Source of the DNA: a virus
Virus record (IMG/VR): IMGVR_UViG_3300025671_000038
Length of the DNA: 64,000 nucleotides
Strand: one strand, 5' to 3'
Both the position numbers and the translations under genes were made by a program. Shown in pieces: positions 36,627 through 42,766 of the stretch (positions are counted from its first letter, which is position 1; every line of letters begins with the position of its first letter). Below the pieces are notes generated by a model. That model saw only the letters and a program-made list of their open reading frames with translations, did no database searches and was not told where the DNA came from.

Positions 36627-37403
36627 TTAATTCCACTGTAAGAAATAGGAAGGAGTGTTCTCTCCGTTGATCATATCCATCACTTCTTGGAGCTCTTTCT
36701 CACCGTCACTTCTAAGCTCTGAGGTGTTTACACTAACACCACCAGGAAGGTTATAGTTGAAAGCACTAAGCACTCTAGATAGACTTATTTTGGACTTGGC
36801 TAAGCAATAACGTATGAATAATTCGTCGTCATATAGATCATCGTCGTCTATAGCAACAAAGCACCTGACTGCAACGTCCATACCGTTTTGGTCGTATCCT
36901 GTTCCAACCCCTGACATACCAGACCTATTAGGATCTCTACCGAGAATGGTAAGTTTCTTGGTATTCTTATTCCATTTAAAAGCGTAAGTTGGCAGAAGAT
37001 ATGCCTGCGCCAGGTCAAAGTAAGAATACATTACAGTTCTATAAACCAGGTTATCCCCGGTGAACGGAGATAACAGAAGTTCAGATCCCAGGAGTTTGGA
37101 ATCACCAAAGTCACGATCAGGAGTTCCCGATATACCCATTCCATTAACTTCCCTCACGTCGTACACAGTCACGATAGAGGGAGGAAGCTGTATCTGTCTC
37201 GTATTTCTAAAGCTAGGATTTGCAAAAAGATTGTTAGCCAGTATAAAGACCCTATCCTCCACAGCATATTGGTAATTGTCATACATGTAATCACGTGCCC
37301 TTCTAATAATCCTATGAATCTCGTCGTCATTTAGATTATAGGGTAAAGAGCAGCTTGCTGATAAGTCATCCTTGATTTCCTGTACTAATTCCTCTAGAGT
37401 CAT
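36627..37403 (-). CDS. Neck protein (T4 gp13-like)
   Basis: N-terminal helix-loop EL..EI...L...NL.DDEI..II; C-terminal LPGGVSVN...L..G.KEL motif. Confidence 0.7.
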   Translation of the reverse strand: MTLEELVQEIKDDLSASCSLPYNLNDDEIHRIIRRARDYMYDNYQYAVEDRVFILANNLFANPSFRNTRQIQLPPSIVTVYDVREVNGMGISGTPDRDFGDSKLLGSELLLSPFTGDNLVYRTVMYSYFDLAQAYLLPTYAFKWNKNTKKLTILGRDPNRSGMSGVGTGYDQNGMDVAVRCFVAIDDDDLYDDELFIRYCLAKSKISLSRVLSAFNYNLPGGVSVNTSELRSDGEKELQEVMDMINGENTPSYFLQWN

Positions 37404-37404
37404 C

Positions 37405-38802
37405 TCAATAATTCTGATTTTTAAATATTATCCTGCGAATAGGATCATTTAGGTTCTTAAGCCTGGAGTCAGTTATAAATCTACTTTGTCTTATATCACT
37501 GAATCCCTTTACTTCCTCCGTCTCTTTGCTAACATTGGCACTACTTCCAAGGTCAGCCTTTCTGATTACACCGCCATTCACCTCGCAGTTTATCATCTTT
37601 CTGGGACAATCGATGTAGCAAGAATCTAGTAGGTTACCGTAGTCAGCACTAGTGTTGTGTATTTTACTATTATAGACCTTGTTGGAATTAGATATTTGAG
37701 ACTCCATAATCTCAGAATCCTTAACCTCACACCCATAGAGGTTGCAGTTTTCTAATTTGCAATTTCTAATTTTACAATCTATCAGATCAAGGTCAGCAAG
37801 ATATCCGGATCCCTTACACTTGGCATTTTTTAATTGGAATCTCCCAGTAGAAGTATCATAATTGAAGAATGCATATTTCACACCACCCTCCACGATTATA
37901 TCGAACACCTTTTCTCTTATTACGGGGAAATAAGTTTTTATATTTTCCTCATATCCTTTAAGGTCCACCAATAGATGGAAATCCGGGAAATTCATGAAGA
38001 AAGACTCAGGATCAGAAAAACTTCTAACCACCTTAGTATACTCCTTCATCATTTCTTGGAGTCTTTTCAAGTCTGACTGGTTATATCCTCTTTTTCCAGA
38101 TAAAAGGTCGTGCAGGTACAGTACCACATAATCAATAACATCCCTTATGGCAGAGATCTTCTTCTGGTAGTCCTTCCCACCAAGATATCTAATTTCGATA
38201 TATCCCTTGGGTACTTTGGTAAAGTTAGCACCATAGTACTTCTCCTCCGGTATTTTAAAAAGCCTTGGATCTATCGATGATATATTTTCCAGAATAGAAA
38301 ATCTATTCACCGGTACTATCTTTTTAACAGATTTAGCGTAAACATTATTAGTTCGGTTACCGAATTTAGAATAGATCAATCCCTCGTCAATTCCGAGAAC
38401 AAACTTCAATCTGTCCAGCTCCTCCATCCTTTTAAGCTCCCGGTTTTCCTTGGAGAAGCTAACAGAAAATTGGAATGCACATTTATCATTCGTCCATCCA
38501 TTCTCGTCTATCCACCTTAAGGTCTTAATCAGAATTGGGATAGCCTCTGCGTACGGGAGAGGACCAGTAATGAGCTCATTCATATTTGATCCACCAGAAT
38601 AGTCAGGTTCCAACTTGAACGAGTCTGCAGTGGCAGGAACTTTAGAGTGATACTTATTACTCAACACCACTTTCTTTCCCAGAAGTTTAGACAACTGGTC
38701 CACTATCCTTCCCCTAACCATTTCCGAGTAAAATTCAAACTCGAATCCGATTAGGGAAGAACTTAAAGCGCTAGCTTTATCAAAGTGGTTATCTTTACTC
38801 AT
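37405..38802 (-). CDS. Putative amidoligase (COOH-NH2 ligase type 2) with C-terminal pentapeptide-like beta-helix
   Basis: IGFEFEF, LEPDYSG, ELITGP, CAFQFSVSF, EKYYGANF, YIEIRYLGG; C-terminal C/S/I-rich 5-residue periodicity. Start taken at the ATG overlapping the S1 stop (ATGAGTAA). Confidence 0.6.
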   Translation of the reverse strand: MSKDNHFDKASALSSSLIGFEFEFYSEMVRGRIVDQLSKLLGKKVVLSNKYHSKVPATADSFKLEPDYSGGSNMNELITGPLPYAEAIPILIKTLRWIDENGWTNDKCAFQFSVSFSKENRELKRMEELDRLKFVLGIDEGLIYSKFGNRTNNVYAKSVKKIVPVNRFSILENISSIDPRLFKIPEEKYYGANFTKVPKGYIEIRYLGGKDYQKKISAIRDVIDYVVLYLHDLLSGKRGYNQSDLKRLQEMMKEYTKVVRSFSDPESFFMNFPDFHLLVDLKGYEENIKTYFPVIREKVFDIIVEGGVKYAFFNYDTSTGRFQLKNAKCKGSGYLADLDLIDCKIRNCKLENCNLYGCEVKDSEIMESQISNSNKVYNSKIHNTSADYGNLLDSCYIDCPRKMINCEVNGGVIRKADLGSSANVSKETEEVKGFSDIRQSRFITDSRLKNLNDPIRRIIFKNQNY

Positions 38803-39952
38803 CCAATGGTTTAGCAAATATTTTTCCCATCACCGCATCAACTTCATAAATTTCTACGTCGATGGAATCTCCCGCTTTTAATCCCTTATGATCTCTTGAC
38901 ATCCTTCCCTGAGGTATCATTGCCATTAGGCCAAGCTCAGGAATCTCTATCAGAGCTCCATTCTTTCTCTTGTGCTTAATTATTGCATTGACTGGCTCGT
39001 TTGTGCCTTCGTCTATATTCTTTTTAAGGTCATAGACTCTAACAGTTTTCTCCAACGGACCACCAAAGGTCAGGGTTAGTCTATTGTCATCCTTGACTTC
39101 CTTTACATAGAACTCTATCTCATCACCAGCTCTAAACCCTTCGACTACCTGATTTTCAAATTCAGTTTTGTGTATCAGACCTGTGTAAATGTCTTCCCAT
39201 TCCACGAAAACTCCAAATTTAGAAGTACCGGTAACATGTCCCTTATACTTTTTGGTTAGATCCAATTCCTGTATTTTCTGGTCCATTATCTTCTCCAGAT
39301 ACTTCTTATAAGAAACTACAAATATTCCCTTGTGTTGGACATATCCGTCTATCATCACGTAGATAGTTTTACCCACATATGAATCAAAATCCGTTATCTT
39401 ATTAGCAGCTGCTAAAGAACCGGGGAGAAAACATTCGATCCCCTGTACATCTACCAGATATCCACCCTTATTTACTGACTTTATTCTTGCCTCGTATGCA
39501 AGGTTTTCCTTGTGTATCTGCTCGAAGAATTCGACCTTCATGTCATTGATGAACCCTTCAACTACAGATCCATAATAAGTACCCATCACGTTTCTAACTG
39601 TAGCATTCACTTTGCTACCCACAGAAAAGTCCAAACCGGTAATTCCCAGTCTTCTTGCGTCCTTTCCTTCCTTTGACAGGTCAATATAGATAGATTGTCC
39701 TCCTTCAGTCTGAGCTATGCAGTATTCGTCGTTAACTCTTAAAATCTCACATTCATAAGAATTTCCAGCCTTAAGATCCTTGGAATACTCTTTATCCCCC
39801 ATGAAATCGAACATGCGGTCATAAACATCCTGAGCATATGGCTCATGGCAATATACTTTAGATCCGTCTTTAGTTTTGACTTTGTGGTTTACCTCGAATC
39901 TGTTAGGTACATCCCAGTTAAAATCCTCGATAGGAGTATTTTGTTCGCTCAT
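38795..39952 (-). CDS. rpsA: Ribosomal protein S1 homologue (four S1/OB domains)
   Basis: VNKGGYLVDVQGIECFLPGS, TSKFGVFVE..IYTGLIHKTE, GDEIEFYV, GDSIDVEI; N-terminal PIEDFNWD motif. Confidence 0.85.
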   Translation of the reverse strand: MSEQNTPIEDFNWDVPNRFEVNHKVKTKDGSKVYCHEPYAQDVYDRMFDFMGDKEYSKDLKAGNSYECEILRVNDEYCIAQTEGGQSIYIDLSKEGKDARRLGITGLDFSVGSKVNATVRNVMGTYYGSVVEGFINDMKVEFFEQIHKENLAYEARIKSVNKGGYLVDVQGIECFLPGSLAAANKITDFDSYVGKTIYVMIDGYVQHKGIFVVSYKKYLEKIMDQKIQELDLTKKYKGHVTGTSKFGVFVEWEDIYTGLIHKTEFENQVVEGFRAGDEIEFYVKEVKDDNRLTLTFGGPLEKTVRVYDLKKNIDEGTNEPVNAIIKHKRKNGALIEIPELGLMAMIPQGRMSRDHKGLKAGDSIDVEIYEVDAVMGKIFAKPLDE

Positions 39953-39981
39953 TTTTTTGGTATTAAAGTGTTATAACCACT

Positions 39982-39989
39982 TATATATC
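39982..39989 (-). promoter_or_regulatory. Putative late promoter GATATATA upstream of S1
   Basis: Exact octamer 29 nt before the S1 ATG. Confidence 0.65.
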
Positions 39990-40018: not shown

Positions 40019-42766
40019 TTACCCCAGAAGAGATGGCATGATTAAATACCTTATGAGATAGAATTCCCGATTAATCATAATGCGCAATTTCTTGGATTCA
40101 ATTATCTCTGGGTATCCAACGTTAATTATCTTGTGGGTATTCAAGGCATCCCTTACGCTTCCAGAGAAAAGGGTGTTTTTATTTCCCTCCGAATCCACAC
40201 CAGGTATGGTAATCTGGGTATCGCTCAAATTAATGTTACCCCCGGTATCTATATTTCTATCCCGAAAAAGATATAAGACTGATAGAAATACCTTTACACT
40301 GTCACCAACTTGATCTAGCCTCCTCTGTCCCCAATAGAAAGAATCTCTTCCGGGATATGTAGGTTGAAAATCATACCCGTTATAAAAATTTAAGCCTGTT
40401 ACACCGGAAGATATGGGGAGTTTAGCTCTAATAACGGAGGAGCTCATACCATTGTTTTCCAGCTGGGCAGAAAGATCATAGAAGAAAGTCTCTATAGGGG
40501 AACTTCCATCGATATCATAAGTGATATCATACCAAAGATCCCTATCCTCAGAGTCATAAGACCCAAAAGTTCCTCTCTTAGTCCCCTGCCAATACCAACT
40601 ATCGGTTTTATTAGTAACTAAAAGGTCCAAAACTTCATTTATAGATTCTATGGTAAGATCAGGGGAACCTCCTGAGCCTGAGGATATAGCAGCAAGTTTA
40701 GATTCTACTGATTGTCCTGAATTTAATCCAAATAAACTCCTCACGACTGCGGGGAATAGCGAGGGTACCTCAGCAGCTAGTCCACCTACTACGGCAATTA
40801 TCCCCTTTATTGCTTCCCAAACCCCTATAAGCTTAATCGGTAGGTATTTTTCTATAATATACAGGGATACCTTATTAGGATTGTCAACTGTTAAAGAAGC
40901 ATCAAATTCACTCTTGTTTATTCCTCTAATTATCTTCTCTATATCGCTAAGAGATTCGTAGTCGCTCTTCTTACCTTCGTCGAGAACACCATATTCGATG
41001 TATGTGTTTTCCACCTTTTTATAAGACACCCTAAAAACAGAGTAGTCCGAATCTACACTCAGCCTAATGGAGTCACCAGAATTGACATTAATAAGGGATC
41101 CAAGAGAATTTGTAACATCACTGCTTACTAGCGAAACCCTCATCACTGTAATATCGTCTAAATTTCTAGAATTAGCAGAAATCTGTCCTTCCTCGGGAAC
41201 AGTAAGATCCCCTTTAAAATTATACGGGAAAGTAACTGGGAAAGTGTCAAGATCTTCATCCTCTATTTGATCCCTCAGAGAATCAAAGAACTCCTTATTC
41301 GGTTGATAAGATCTAAGCCCCTTAGCAAAATCCCCGCAAACCATATCGCTTATCAATGGCTTTAATCCCCGGTTAGAATCGGAGGGGTCAACTTTTGCTT
41401 CTTCGTAAGGCATGATAGTTGTAATCGCAGGGGAAATATAAGGCTCCAAAAACTGAAGAAAAGCCTCCGATATAAGATCGCAAATGAGTCCGAGCGGATC
41501 GGTAAGACCCTTGATTACGGTTCTTACTAATGATATCGGATTAGTTATCTTTTCAGCTAATCCCTTTAAAACTCCGAGTATCACCTTAACAGGTAACAGA
41601 AGTAGCTTTAGATAATTGAGGAGTATCTTAATTAAAAAAAAGGGGTTATCAGCTCCAATCTGCAATACCCTAGCAAAAGATACGAGATCCTCTTTACTGG
41701 TTTCAGTTAAGTCTGGGGAGTTGTTTAGTGTGGTCTCCTGTATCTTAGCAAAATCTATCTTAGGAAATTTTCCATCAAAGACACCTGATAATACATCGCC
41801 ATAAGAAAGTCCAGCTCGTTCAGAAAGCTGTTCCAAATACTGTTTGGTTGGAGAAGTGGAAGAAACTTTAGAGAAATCCCCAAGAACCAAATTTATACTG
41901 GAAAGAAGCGGAAAATTAAGACCCAATACTGAAAAGGGTATAGAAATCTTGCCATTCGAAGTAAAATCTCGAAGTGCAAGCCTTCTCGAAGATCTGATGG
42001 AAGCACTAGAAAATCCAGGAATAATCACATCTCCACTGTTAGGAATCTCCTCAATATTCAGCGATTTTATTCTTAGGTCAACTTTGTAATAAGGATCAGA
42101 CGAATCTATTTTTCTAATAGAGGTAACATCAAAAACCCCGTATTTCCCACCACTACTTACCTCTATCTCATCTCCAGACCTAAGCAACCTAAGAGAGCCG
42201 TTATTATCATTGGTGTCAGTTATCTCGCTAACACTTATAGACGTCAGACTTTCTATTCCATCTGAGGGAGTAGTTATTTGTCCATCAACTGGTGCTTGAC
42301 TGATGTTATAAGTTATCGAATAGGAAAAACGATCGAGCTCATCATCTACGTTGTCGGAGGACGATGAATCAATGAGACTTTTTAATCTACCTATGTCACC
42401 CCCGATATTCTCTAGATTTAAAGATATCGGGAAAGGAAACTCTTCTAGCTGAGCATTTATCCCCTCATCAAGCATGAATTGAAGAGGATTGGAAAATAAA
42501 GTTTTTATTGAGCTAACTGTATCCTTGATTTCACTCAATCCTCCCTTCAAAACCTTCTTCCCCATGAATATGGGAGCAAATGAGGTAGCTAGACTTCTCT
42601 CAAAGGTTCTTATCTGTAGCTTAACCAAGAGTCCAAGACCAAACAGGTTGGAATTGGGTATCTTGAATTTACTGTCGCTTACTATACTGTCAGCAGTATC
42701 ATTTACCCTGTCTATAAATGCGTTAATCTCAGCATCTTCTAATATTTTGTCGGGTAATACAGCCAT
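40019..42766 (-). CDS. Large hypothetical baseplate-region protein (915 aa) with internally duplicated module and amphipathic helices
   Basis: Directly downstream of the gp5-like gene; two copies of a Y...P.(D/E)GQI...SGD.I module. Confidence 0.5.
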   Translation of the reverse strand: MAVLPDKILEDAEINAFIDRVNDTADSIVSDSKFKIPNSNLFGLGLLVKLQIRTFERSLATSFAPIFMGKKVLKGGLSEIKDTVSSIKTLFSNPLQFMLDEGINAQLEEFPFPISLNLENIGGDIGRLKSLIDSSSSDNVDDELDRFSYSITYNISQAPVDGQITTPSDGIESLTSISVSEITDTNDNNGSLRLLRSGDEIEVSSGGKYGVFDVTSIRKIDSSDPYYKVDLRIKSLNIEEIPNSGDVIIPGFSSASIRSSRRLALRDFTSNGKISIPFSVLGLNFPLLSSINLVLGDFSKVSSTSPTKQYLEQLSERAGLSYGDVLSGVFDGKFPKIDFAKIQETTLNNSPDLTETSKEDLVSFARVLQIGADNPFFLIKILLNYLKLLLLPVKVILGVLKGLAEKITNPISLVRTVIKGLTDPLGLICDLISEAFLQFLEPYISPAITTIMPYEEAKVDPSDSNRGLKPLISDMVCGDFAKGLRSYQPNKEFFDSLRDQIEDEDLDTFPVTFPYNFKGDLTVPEEGQISANSRNLDDITVMRVSLVSSDVTNSLGSLINVNSGDSIRLSVDSDYSVFRVSYKKVENTYIEYGVLDEGKKSDYESLSDIEKIIRGINKSEFDASLTVDNPNKVSLYIIEKYLPIKLIGVWEAIKGIIAVVGGLAAEVPSLFPAVVRSLFGLNSGQSVESKLAAISSGSGGSPDLTIESINEVLDLLVTNKTDSWYWQGTKRGTFGSYDSEDRDLWYDITYDIDGSSPIETFFYDLSAQLENNGMSSSVIRAKLPISSGVTGLNFYNGYDFQPTYPGRDSFYWGQRRLDQVGDSVKVFLSVLYLFRDRNIDTGGNINLSDTQITIPGVDSEGNKNTLFSGSVRDALNTHKIINVGYPEIIESKKLRIMINREFYLIRYLIMPSLLG

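What the first reader, a model, noticed from the sequence alone, without database searches (positions are those of the whole stretch)
38795..39989. Phage-encoded ribosomal protein S1 with a Bacteroidota-type N-terminal motif under a late promoter
The 385-aa protein has four recognisable S1 domains, against six in typical Gram-negative RpsA. It begins MSEQNTPIEDFNWD, which matches my recollection of the Bacteroides RpsA N-terminus (...PIEDFNWD...). In bacterial S1 the N-terminus docks on the 30S subunit via uS2 (established). The gene has its own GATATATA motif and lies inside the baseplate/neck cluster (seen). It may displace host S1 late in infection and bias ribosomes toward phage late mRNAs (inference). 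S1 genes have been reported in huge phages, but this timing and anchor retention deserve testing.
Basis: partly seen in the sequence, partly recalled or inferred. Interest (0 to 1): 0.8.

Follow-up and report, generated by a model that had tools for sequence, protein, structure and literature searches.

The report
Phage copy of ribosomal protein S1
A large uncultured estuarine phage carries a shortened, four-domain copy of bacterial ribosomal protein S1 that keeps both helices Bacteroidia bacteria use to anchor S1 on the ribosome; it is a well-supported example of a phage gene type first reported in 2020, and its function is still untested.

Summary
Window 38795-39952 (minus strand) encodes a 385-aa protein with four OB/S1 domains (AF2 pLDDT 90.8). 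Its best fold matches are ribosome-bound bS1.

Its start, PIEDFNWD, is the N-terminal motif of Bacteroidales RpsA. A degenerate scan of 185,579 genomes hit mainly rpsA 5' ends of Bacteroides, Phocaeicola and Parabacteroides. F-[DN]-W is general in class Bacteroidia.

A 2026 cryo-EM paper shows that in Flavobacterium johnsoniae this aromatic helix contacts uS8, and that the bS1 N-terminus binds uS2 and uS8.

A three-chain complex prediction passed (0.64; best control 0.11) with that geometry.

The gene is a core gene of a large jumbo-phage clade. It sits at a fixed place (hub / S1 / overlapping amidoligase-like gene / gp13- / gp25- / gp6-like) down to 33-40% identity. The genome lacks Shine-Dalgarno sites.

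GATATATA is a real, strand-specific, start-proximal motif. It also precedes non-structural genes, so "late" is unproven.

Possible rpS1 genes in huge phages were published in 2020. This scan has already reported the same family on other DNA. Verdict: new member of a known kind; displacement of host S1 is inferred only.

The parts
39982..39989 (-). GATATATA promoter-like octamer, 29 nt upstream of the S1 start codon
   Evidence: In the 116-kb record there are 22 copies on the gene strand against 1 on the other. 16 of 22 are intergenic (P = 2.5e-15). The motif is kept upstream of the S1 orthologue in L123 (91% identity) and L126 (62% identity).
39953..39981 (-). Short A-rich leader without a Shine-Dalgarno site (ends ...accaaaaaaATG)
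   Evidence: Genome-wide, 8 of 98 leaders hold an SD 4-mer, and A reaches 45-59% at -8..-18.
38795..39952 (-). Coding sequence of the phage bS1 homologue, 385 aa (stop codon included)
39911..39934 (-). Residues 7-14, PIEDFNWD: counterpart of the Bacteroidia bS1 aromatic helix that contacts uS8
   Evidence: PMC13000457. F-[NDS]-W is present in 119 of 120 close clusters. Residues 11-19 touch uS8 in the complex model.
39800..39844 (-). Residues 37-51, helix EPYAQDVYDRM...: counterpart of the uS2-docking helix that precedes domain 1
   Evidence: Helix 40-51 in the AF2 model. Family consensus KVYxxExYAQELY. Bacterial counterpart L..xY[DE]xTL. Residues 31-51 touch uS2 in the complex model.
39566..39766 (-). 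S1 domain 1 (residues 63-129, with an inserted helix at 92-102)
   Evidence: Residues 71-89 and 124-125 touch uS2 residues 16-20 and 204-210 in the complex model.
39311..39502 (-). S1 domain 2 (residues 151-214), the most conserved part (GGY.VD..G..CFLPGSLAAANK)
   Evidence: It aligns with domain 2 of bacterial bS1.
39065..39253 (-). S1 domain 3 (residues 234-296), a canonical RNA-binding S1 domain
   Evidence: Best Pfam S1 stretch at 235-292..
38804..38998 (-). S1 domain 4 (residues 319-383)
   Evidence: Pfam OB_cyt-4 at 323-383..
37405..38802 (-). Partner gene, 465 aa. Its ATG overlaps the S1 stop by 8 nt (ATGAGTAA). It has a glutamine-synthetase-like amidoligase fold plus a C-terminal pentapeptide-repeat beta-helix.
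   Evidence: Amidoligase_2, E = 3e-4, below cut-off. AF2 pLDDT 85.8. Foldseek matches glutamine synthetase at E = 6e-5 and AlbG/Qnr at about 6e-4. It sits next to S1 in 83 of 85 related loci.
36627..37403 (-). gp13-type neck protein gene that closes the S1 / partner / neck block
   Evidence: PHROG 211. Pfam Phage_T4_gp13 on the orthologues. Present in 81 of 85 loci.

Best explanation
The gene encodes a phage version of ribosomal protein bS1, cut down to the N-terminal anchor plus domains 1-4.

Proposed mechanism:
- The first helix (FNW) and the second helix (YAQ..YD) with domain 1 dock it on the 30S platform of a Bacteroidia host. This is the uS8/uS2 site that host bS1 uses.
- Domains 3-4 hold mRNA.
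- The phage messages are SD-less, A-rich and probably short-leadered. Host bS1 binds weakly and reversibly, so the phage protein is expected to occupy vacant or exchanged bS1 sites and favour loading of phage messages.

What is shown:
- Homology and colinearity with bS1.
- Strict conservation of the two anchor motifs.
- SD-less leaders.
- Core-gene status of S1 inside the virion module.

What is inferred:
- Actual 30S binding.
- Competition with host bS1.
- Any message preference.
- The time of action.
For: Homology and fold:
- Top NCBIfam hits are rpsA equivalogs aligned over residues 48-377.
- The family profile aligns colinearly with domains 1-4 of RpsA from several phyla.
- AF2 gives four OB barrels at pLDDT 90.8.
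- Foldseek's best match is E. coli bS1 on the 30S, 9gut_B, E = 7e-23.

Anchor motifs:
- PIEDFNWD equals the Bacteroidales RpsA N-terminus.
- F[DN]W is found in nearly all of 29 RpsA sampled across class Bacteroidia. It is absent from other Bacteroidota classes and other phyla sampled.
- In F. johnsoniae this helix contacts uS8, and the bS1 N-terminus binds uS2 and uS8 (PMC13000457).
- F[NDS]W is kept in 119 of 120 close clusters.

Complex prediction:
- Score 0.64 against a best control of 0.11. That mark was reached by 58 of 80 solved complexes and 2 of 110 mismatched pairs.
- Runs agree in at least 88% of contacts; partner pLDDT is at least 73.
- Residues 11-19 sit on uS8; residues 31-51 and domain 1 sit on uS2.
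- A like complex (E. coli S1-S2) is solved, so this shows likeness, not binding.

Genome and family context:
- Leaders are SD-less and A-rich.
- The homologue in Lak megaphages of Prevotella carries FNW and YAQELYD.
- Synteny is fixed in 80 IMG/VR loci, down to 36-40% identity.
- Contigs at least 99% identical to parts of the gene occur in four metatranscriptome libraries. DNA carry-over is not excluded.
Against: - Scores are far below every curated rpsA cut-off: 75.7 against 577 bits for TIGR00717.
- In a quick ML tree the phage proteins form their own clade on a very long branch. They do not nest in Bacteroidia RpsA.
- Pairwise and profile scores do not favour Bacteroidia over other phyla.
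- Domains 5-6 are missing.
- The first helix has low model confidence (pLDDT 54-64).
- The complex pass may come from memory of solved S1-uS2 structures, and it used stand-in host proteins.
- The host is not identified.
- Nothing shows timing, stoichiometry or any effect on translation.
Confidence: 0.62

Rival explanations
1. It docks on the bS1 site but acts as a blocker. By occupying the uS2/uS8 site with a protein that lacks domains 5-6, it shuts down host translation rather than serving as a working S1 for phage messages.
For: - The anchor is conserved.
- Two of the six bS1 domains are missing.
Against: - Phage messages are themselves SD-less and A-rich. In Bacteroidia these are the messages that bS1 stimulates (PMC13000457), so a pure blocker would hurt the phage.
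- Domain 3 keeps the canonical S1 signature.
Confidence: 0.13
2. It works off the ribosome as an RNA chaperone, mRNA protector or cofactor of a phage enzyme, as host S1 does for T4 RegB and Q-beta replicase. The N-terminal motifs would serve another partner.
For: - S1 domains are widespread in non-ribosomal proteins.
- Al-Shayeb et al. left open 'on or off the ribosome'.
- The tree places the family far from cellular RpsA.
- 39 of 128 distant family representatives have neither N-terminal motif.
Against: - The two-helix N-terminus matches the Bacteroidia ribosome anchor in order and spacing.
- It is nearly invariant in the close family.
- Domain 2 keeps the bS1-type FLPGS motif.
- The complex model gives the ribosomal geometry.
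Confidence: 0.13
3. It is a virion-associated or assembly-linked protein. It is made with neck and baseplate parts, possibly together with the amidoligase-like partner, and is either packed for delivery into the next cell or needed during tail/neck assembly.
For: - It holds a fixed position inside the hub / neck / baseplate block in 83 of 85 loci.
- It is translationally coupled to the partner gene.
- It shares the upstream motif with the gp25-like gene.
Against: - By eye, its N-terminus does not match the capsid-targeting leader that other notes describe for this genome; this was not tested.
- An RNA-binding four-OB protein has no known structural role.
- Position alone is weak evidence: phage bS21 also sits in a structural block.
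Confidence: 0.1

Closest known systems
Ribosomal protein bS1 (RpsA) of class Bacteroidia, e.g. Flavobacterium johnsoniae bS1 (591 aa; N-terminus resolved on the 30S, PMC13000457) and Bacteroidales RpsA
   Same: - The layout matches: N-terminal helix-loop-helix with an F-[DN]-W aromatic helix, then a Y[DE]-containing helix, then domains 1-4 in the same order.
- The domain 2 FLPGS motif is kept.
- Both serve SD-less, A-rich messages.
   Different: - 385 aa with four domains, against about 600 aa with six.
- About 10 extra residues lie between the two helices (W-to-Y spacing 31 against 21).
- Only 25-38% identity, and only over parts.
- Far below the rpsA model cut-offs.
- A separate long-branch clade.
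- Encoded by a phage, inside its virion module.
'Possible rpS1' genes of huge phages (Al-Shayeb et al. 2020, PMC7162821), including the homologue in Lak megaphages of Prevotella
   Same: - A multi-S1-domain protein on a huge phage genome that lacks Shine-Dalgarno sites.
- The Lak homologue (369 aa, 34% identity) carries the same FNW and YAQELYD motifs.
   Different: - That paper said true rpS1 could not be confirmed.
- Here the ribosome-anchor motifs, the four-domain fold, the fixed gene neighbourhood and the coupled partner gene are documented for one family.
Phage-encoded bS21 of Bacteroidetes-infecting huge phages (Chen et al. 2022, PMC9723584)
   Same: - A ribosomal initiation-related protein encoded inside a conserved structural gene block.
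- Phages of SD-less Bacteroidia hosts.
- Proposed to substitute into host ribosomes during late protein production.
   Different: - A different protein at a different ribosomal site.
- bS21 expression with structural genes was measured in situ.
- For this S1 only short matching contigs in RNA libraries were seen.
- No bS21 was found in the 116-kb fragment (the fragment is about 42% complete).
Short-form S1 proteins (four-domain S1 of low-GC Gram-positives; three-domain plastid/cyanobacterial S1). Comparison from general knowledge.
   Same: A reduced number of S1 domains.
   Different: Gram-positive four-domain S1 lacks the ribosome-anchoring N-terminus and domain 1 function. The phage protein has lost the C-terminal domains instead and kept the anchor.

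Membership tests
Ribosomal protein bS1 (RpsA) | Tandem S1/OB domains colinear with RpsA domains 1 to 4 or more | tested here: met
   - NCBIfam rpsA models align over residues 48-377.
- The family profile is colinear with RpsA domains 1-4.
- AF2 shows four OB barrels.
- Foldseek's top hits are bS1.
Ribosomal protein bS1 (RpsA) | Score above the curated equivalog cut-off (TIGR00717 577 bits; NF004952 524 bits) | tested here: not met
   75.7 and 79.3 bits respectively.
Ribosomal protein bS1 (RpsA) | Six S1 domains, as in Gram-negative and Bacteroidia bS1 | tested here: not met
   Four domains; 385 aa against about 600 aa.
Ribosomal protein bS1 (RpsA) | N-terminal segment that anchors the protein to the 30S (uS2 helix; in Bacteroidia also the FNW helix on uS8) | tested here: met
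   - Sequence motifs are present in the right order.
- Their structural meaning comes from PMC13000457.
- They are conserved in 119 of 120 close clusters.
- The complex model passes at 0.64 against a best control of 0.11. This shows likeness, not binding.
Ribosomal protein bS1 (RpsA) | Physical presence on the 30S subunit and stimulation of initiation | not testable with these tools
   Needs pull-down or co-sedimentation, cryo-EM and in vitro initiation assays.
Ribosomal protein bS1 (RpsA) | Phylogenetic placement within cellular RpsA | tested here: not met
   A quick ML tree puts 21 phage rows in one clade (SH-aLRT 100), separated from 32 bacterial rows by a branch of more than 3 changes per site. 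Long-branch caveats apply.
Possible rpS1 of huge phages (Al-Shayeb 2020) | A multi-S1-domain protein encoded by a phage of more than 200 kb whose genes lack Shine-Dalgarno sites | tested here: met
   - The record is 116 kb at 42% estimated completeness.
- Relatives lie on contigs of 267-434 kb.
- An SD 4-mer occurs in 8 of 98 leaders.
T4-type late promoter | An AT-rich octamer at about -10 without a -35 element, found upstream of late (virion) genes only, and read with a gp55-type factor | tested here: inconclusive
   - The octamer is strand-specific and start-proximal.
- It also precedes a RuvC-like gene and the tmRNA/tRNA region.
- No gp55 homologue was searched for, and there are no time-course data.

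The most novel reading that the evidence does not exclude
S1 and the translationally coupled glutamine-synthetase-fold amidoligase / pentapeptide-repeat protein form one ancient functional module. The ligase would covalently modify the phage S1 or a neighbouring platform protein, in the way RimK extends bS6, to lock the phage S1 onto the 30S or re-tool the mRNA-loading platform. Because it is made with virion parts, the pair might even be delivered into the next cell.
Probability: 0.1. Interest if true: 0.8.

Novelty: new member of a known kind. Interest (0 to 1): 0.45.

Why it matters
- Bacteroidia start translation without Shine-Dalgarno pairing and lean on bS1 and A-rich leaders.
- A phage S1 that keeps the exact two-point anchor of Bacteroidia bS1 is the most direct candidate for ribosome capture in this abundant group of aquatic and gut bacteria.
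- The 2026 F. johnsoniae structures and bS1-dependent initiation assays now make the idea testable at the bench.
- The family is large: 131 clusters at 50% identity with E below 1e-30.
- It is a fixed core gene of a jumbo-phage clade, so a result would generalise widely.

Tried and rejected
- PHROGs gave no family for the protein.
- Pairwise BLAST and family-profile scores against 70 RpsA from Bacteroidia, other Bacteroidota and other phyla did not single out a donor. Bacteroidia median was 197 bits against 220 for a gammaproteobacterium.
- The quick tree did not nest the phage clade in Bacteroidia. The careful search did not finish, and only three non-Bacteroidota rows survived trimming.
- The first phylum-wide RpsA sample returned mostly non-Bacteroidia classes without FNW. 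A class-level sample was needed.
- Distant relatives P0123 and P0199 lie on contigs of 2 kb or less and gave little context. L257 has no partner gene downstream.
- No bS21 (PF01165) was found in the 116-kb fragment. This does not show absence, because the record is about 42% complete.
- RNA libraries gave only short contigs. Parts without cover (for example 40104-42543) mean nothing. Contigs show neither strand, level nor timing, and DNA carry-over is possible.
- By eye, the S1 N-terminus did not fit a T4-type capsid-targeting leader ([ILV]-x-E cleavage site). This was not tested further.
Full report
**What is there**

The minus strand of window 38795-39952 holds a 385-aa ORF that begins MSEQNTPIEDFNWD.
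- Pfam finds three S1 stretches and an OB_cyt-4 stretch over the last domain.
- All top NCBIfam hits are rpsA equivalog models aligned colinearly over residues 48-377. Scores are 70-79 bits against cut-offs of 368-918 bits.
- Single-domain S1 proteins (PNPase, RNase R, NusA, GSP13/CvfD) score lower and over one domain only.
- PHROGs has no family for it.
- An AlphaFold2 model built on 87 family members has mean pLDDT 90.8. It shows a short helix at 14-17 (low confidence), a helix at 40-51, and four OB barrels at about 63-129, 151-214, 234-296 and 319-383.
- Foldseek against the PDB returns ribosome-bound E. coli bS1 first (9gut_B, E = 7e-23), followed by other bS1 chains.

So it groups with ribosomal S1, not with non-ribosomal S1-domain proteins.

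**The N-terminal motif**

I scanned one genome per species (185,579 species) with a degenerate DNA pattern for [IV]-E-D-F-N-W-[DE].
- Most hits are Bacteroides, Phocaeicola, Parabacteroides, Tannerellaceae and other Bacteroidales.
- In these the match sits at residues about 9-16 of a ~600-aa frame reading MENLKN..P[IV]EDFNWDAYENGE...EKAYD.TLN, followed by domain 1.
- A class-level sample of 29 Bacteroidia RpsA shows F-[DN]-W in nearly all.
- A phylum-level sample dominated by other Bacteroidota classes lacks it, as do a gammaproteobacterium, a planctomycete, a leptospire and two Firmicutes. These keep a second helix of the type L..xY[DE]xTL just before domain 1.

**What the motif does**

Arpin et al. 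2026 (PMC13000457) resolved the first 40 residues of F. johnsoniae bS1 on the 30S.
- They form a helix-loop-helix.
- The helix with FLANFNWHNF (residues 11-20) contacts uS8.
- The N-terminus is stably associated with uS2 and uS8.

The phage stretch EDFNWD is therefore the counterpart of the Bacteroidia-specific uS8 contact, not of the uS2 anchor.

I read the phage helix EPYAQDVYDRM (residues 37-47) as the counterpart of the uS2-docking helix. It aligns by position with L..xY[DE]xTL of Bacteroidota. From general knowledge it also corresponds to SFAQLFEESL of E. coli.

Both elements are under strong constraint. F-[NDS]-W is present in 119 of 120 clusters at 57% identity or more. The Y-A...L-Y helix is present in 109 of those.

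**Complex prediction**

I built alignments of uS2 and uS8 from 28 and 20 Bacteroidia genomes, with a Flavobacterium-like genome as first row. I folded them with residues 1-130 of the phage protein.
- Score 0.64, best of three controls 0.11. That mark was reached by 58 of 80 solved complexes and 2 of 110 mismatched pairs.
- The runs agree in at least 88% of contacts. Partner pLDDT is at least 73.
- Residues 11, 13, 15, 17 and 19 touch uS8.
- Residues 31-35 pair with uS2 residues 32-36.
- The second helix and domain 1 touch uS2 residues 16-20 and 204-210.

The geometry is what the cryo-EM paper describes. However, S1-uS2 complexes are solved and the host proteins are stand-ins. The pass therefore shows likeness, not binding.

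**The phage and its host**

- The window lies in an IMG/VR record of 116 kb, estimated 42% complete.
- Relatives carrying the gene lie on contigs of 267-434 kb.
- Only 8 of 98 leaders hold an SD 4-mer. G drops to 7-15% and A rises to 45-59% at -8..-18, which is the Bacteroidia pattern.
- The record also carries a tmRNA and seven tRNAs.
- The same DNA occurs in freshwater, marine and seawater metagenomes of several studies.
- Lak megaphages of Prevotella hold a 369-aa homologue (34% identity) with FNW and YAQELYD.

A Bacteroidia host is thus well supported. The species is unknown.

**A core gene at a fixed place**

- The family has 2898 hits in the 90%-identity database. In the 50%-identity library, 131 clusters score E below 1e-30, nearly all of 330-435 aa.
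- In 80 IMG/VR loci plus five others, the order hub / (variable gene) / S1 / 465-aa partner / gp13-like / gp25-like / gp6-like is kept in 83 of 85 loci for the partner and 81 of 85 for gp13. This holds down to 33-40% S1 identity.
- S1 diverges about as fast as its structural neighbours.
- The partner's ATG overlaps the S1 stop by 8 nt.
- The partner folds as a glutamine-synthetase-like amidoligase followed by a pentapeptide-repeat beta-helix. AF2 pLDDT is 85.8. Foldseek matches are weak, E = 6e-5 and about 6e-4.

**Origin**

A quick ML tree puts all 21 phage rows in one clade (SH-aLRT 100) on a very long branch, outside all 32 bacterial rows. Pairwise and profile scores do not favour Bacteroidia.

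The body of the protein therefore gives no donor signal. Only the N-terminal anchor ties it to Bacteroidia. That fits an old acquisition with fast divergence and selection on the docking surface. Convergence of a short motif cannot be excluded.

The exact 8-residue identity with Bacteroidales is particular to this phage and its 91% relative. Other close members read, for example, ETFNWEIP or EEFDWDIP.

**The promoter claim**

GATATATA is real.
- 22 copies lie on the gene strand against 1 on the other.
- 16 of 22 lie in the 6.2% of sequence that is intergenic (P = 2.5e-15).
- 13 lie 16-30 nt before an ATG.
- It is kept before the S1 orthologue in relatives of 91% and 62% identity.
- Two copies follow terminator-like hairpins.

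It also precedes a RuvC-like gene and lies in the tmRNA/tRNA region. It is therefore a general phage promoter-like element, and its temporal class is not known.

Contigs at least 99% identical to parts of S1, the partner and the neck genes occur in four metatranscriptome libraries. This is compatible with expression, but it gives no timing and does not exclude DNA carry-over.

**What is known already**

- Al-Shayeb et al. 2020 reported possible rpS1 genes in huge phages and their link with SD-less genomes. They noted that true rpS1 could not be confirmed.
- Mizuno et al. 2019 set S1-domain hits aside as ambiguous.
- Chen et al. 2022 made the late-stage, structural-block argument for phage bS21 in Bacteroidetes phages.
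- This scan has reported the same four-domain S1 family inside baseplate genes on other genomes.

**Verdict**

The most likely mechanism is docking at the host bS1 site through a uS8 + uS2 anchor, to load SD-less phage messages (confidence about 0.6). Displacement of host S1, message bias and late timing are inference. It is a new, well-documented member of a known kind.

Noticed in passing
window 37405-38802 (-): The 465-aa partner gene is translationally coupled to S1. It folds as a glutamine-synthetase-like amidoligase (residues about 1-305) plus a pentapeptide-repeat beta-helix (about 310-420). It sits next to S1 in 83 of 85 related loci. Function unknown.
   Followed up: partly
G000 C1:113855-116130 (same record, outside the window): ARAGORN finds a tmRNA with an unusually long predicted tag (starts GEN, ends ALAA) and seven tRNAs: Thr, Ser, Leu, 2 x Met, Asn, Gly.
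   Followed up: no
whole record; in the window e.g. 1940, 36615, 39982, 53302, 55942, 63476 (-): GATATATA is a genome-wide, strand-specific, start-proximal motif (22 against 1; 16 of 22 intergenic). Two copies lie directly after terminator-like hairpins, upstream of the genes starting at 1912 and 63453.
   Followed up: partly
window 40019-42766 (-): The 915-aa gene between the hub-like gene and S1 is the variable element of the block. A homologue is detectable in only 20 of 85 related loci, at 29-49% identity even where neighbours are 70-80% identical. It may be a host-specificity component.
   Followed up: no
L058 and L113 (Phocaeicola / Bacteroidales genomes): Two open frames of 1437 and 1350 aa begin with an RpsA-like N-terminus (IEDFNWDAY...NIGYK). 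This suggests a second, much longer S1-type paralogue or fusion in some Bacteroidales.
   Followed up: no
leaders of 98 ORFs of the record: A enrichment peaks at -17, -12/-11, -5 and -3. There is a dip at -6 (A 0.32, T 0.42), whereas F. johnsoniae is reported to favour A at -3, -6, -12 and -13. The sample is small and the start calls are uncurated.
   Followed up: no
L339 (Prevotella phage Lak-A2, 355614-356723): The Lak megaphage S1 homologue is 369 aa. Beyond its FNW / YAQELYD N-terminus, it appears to have three rather than four OB domains and an acidic C-terminal tail; the domain count was judged by eye.
   Followed up: partly
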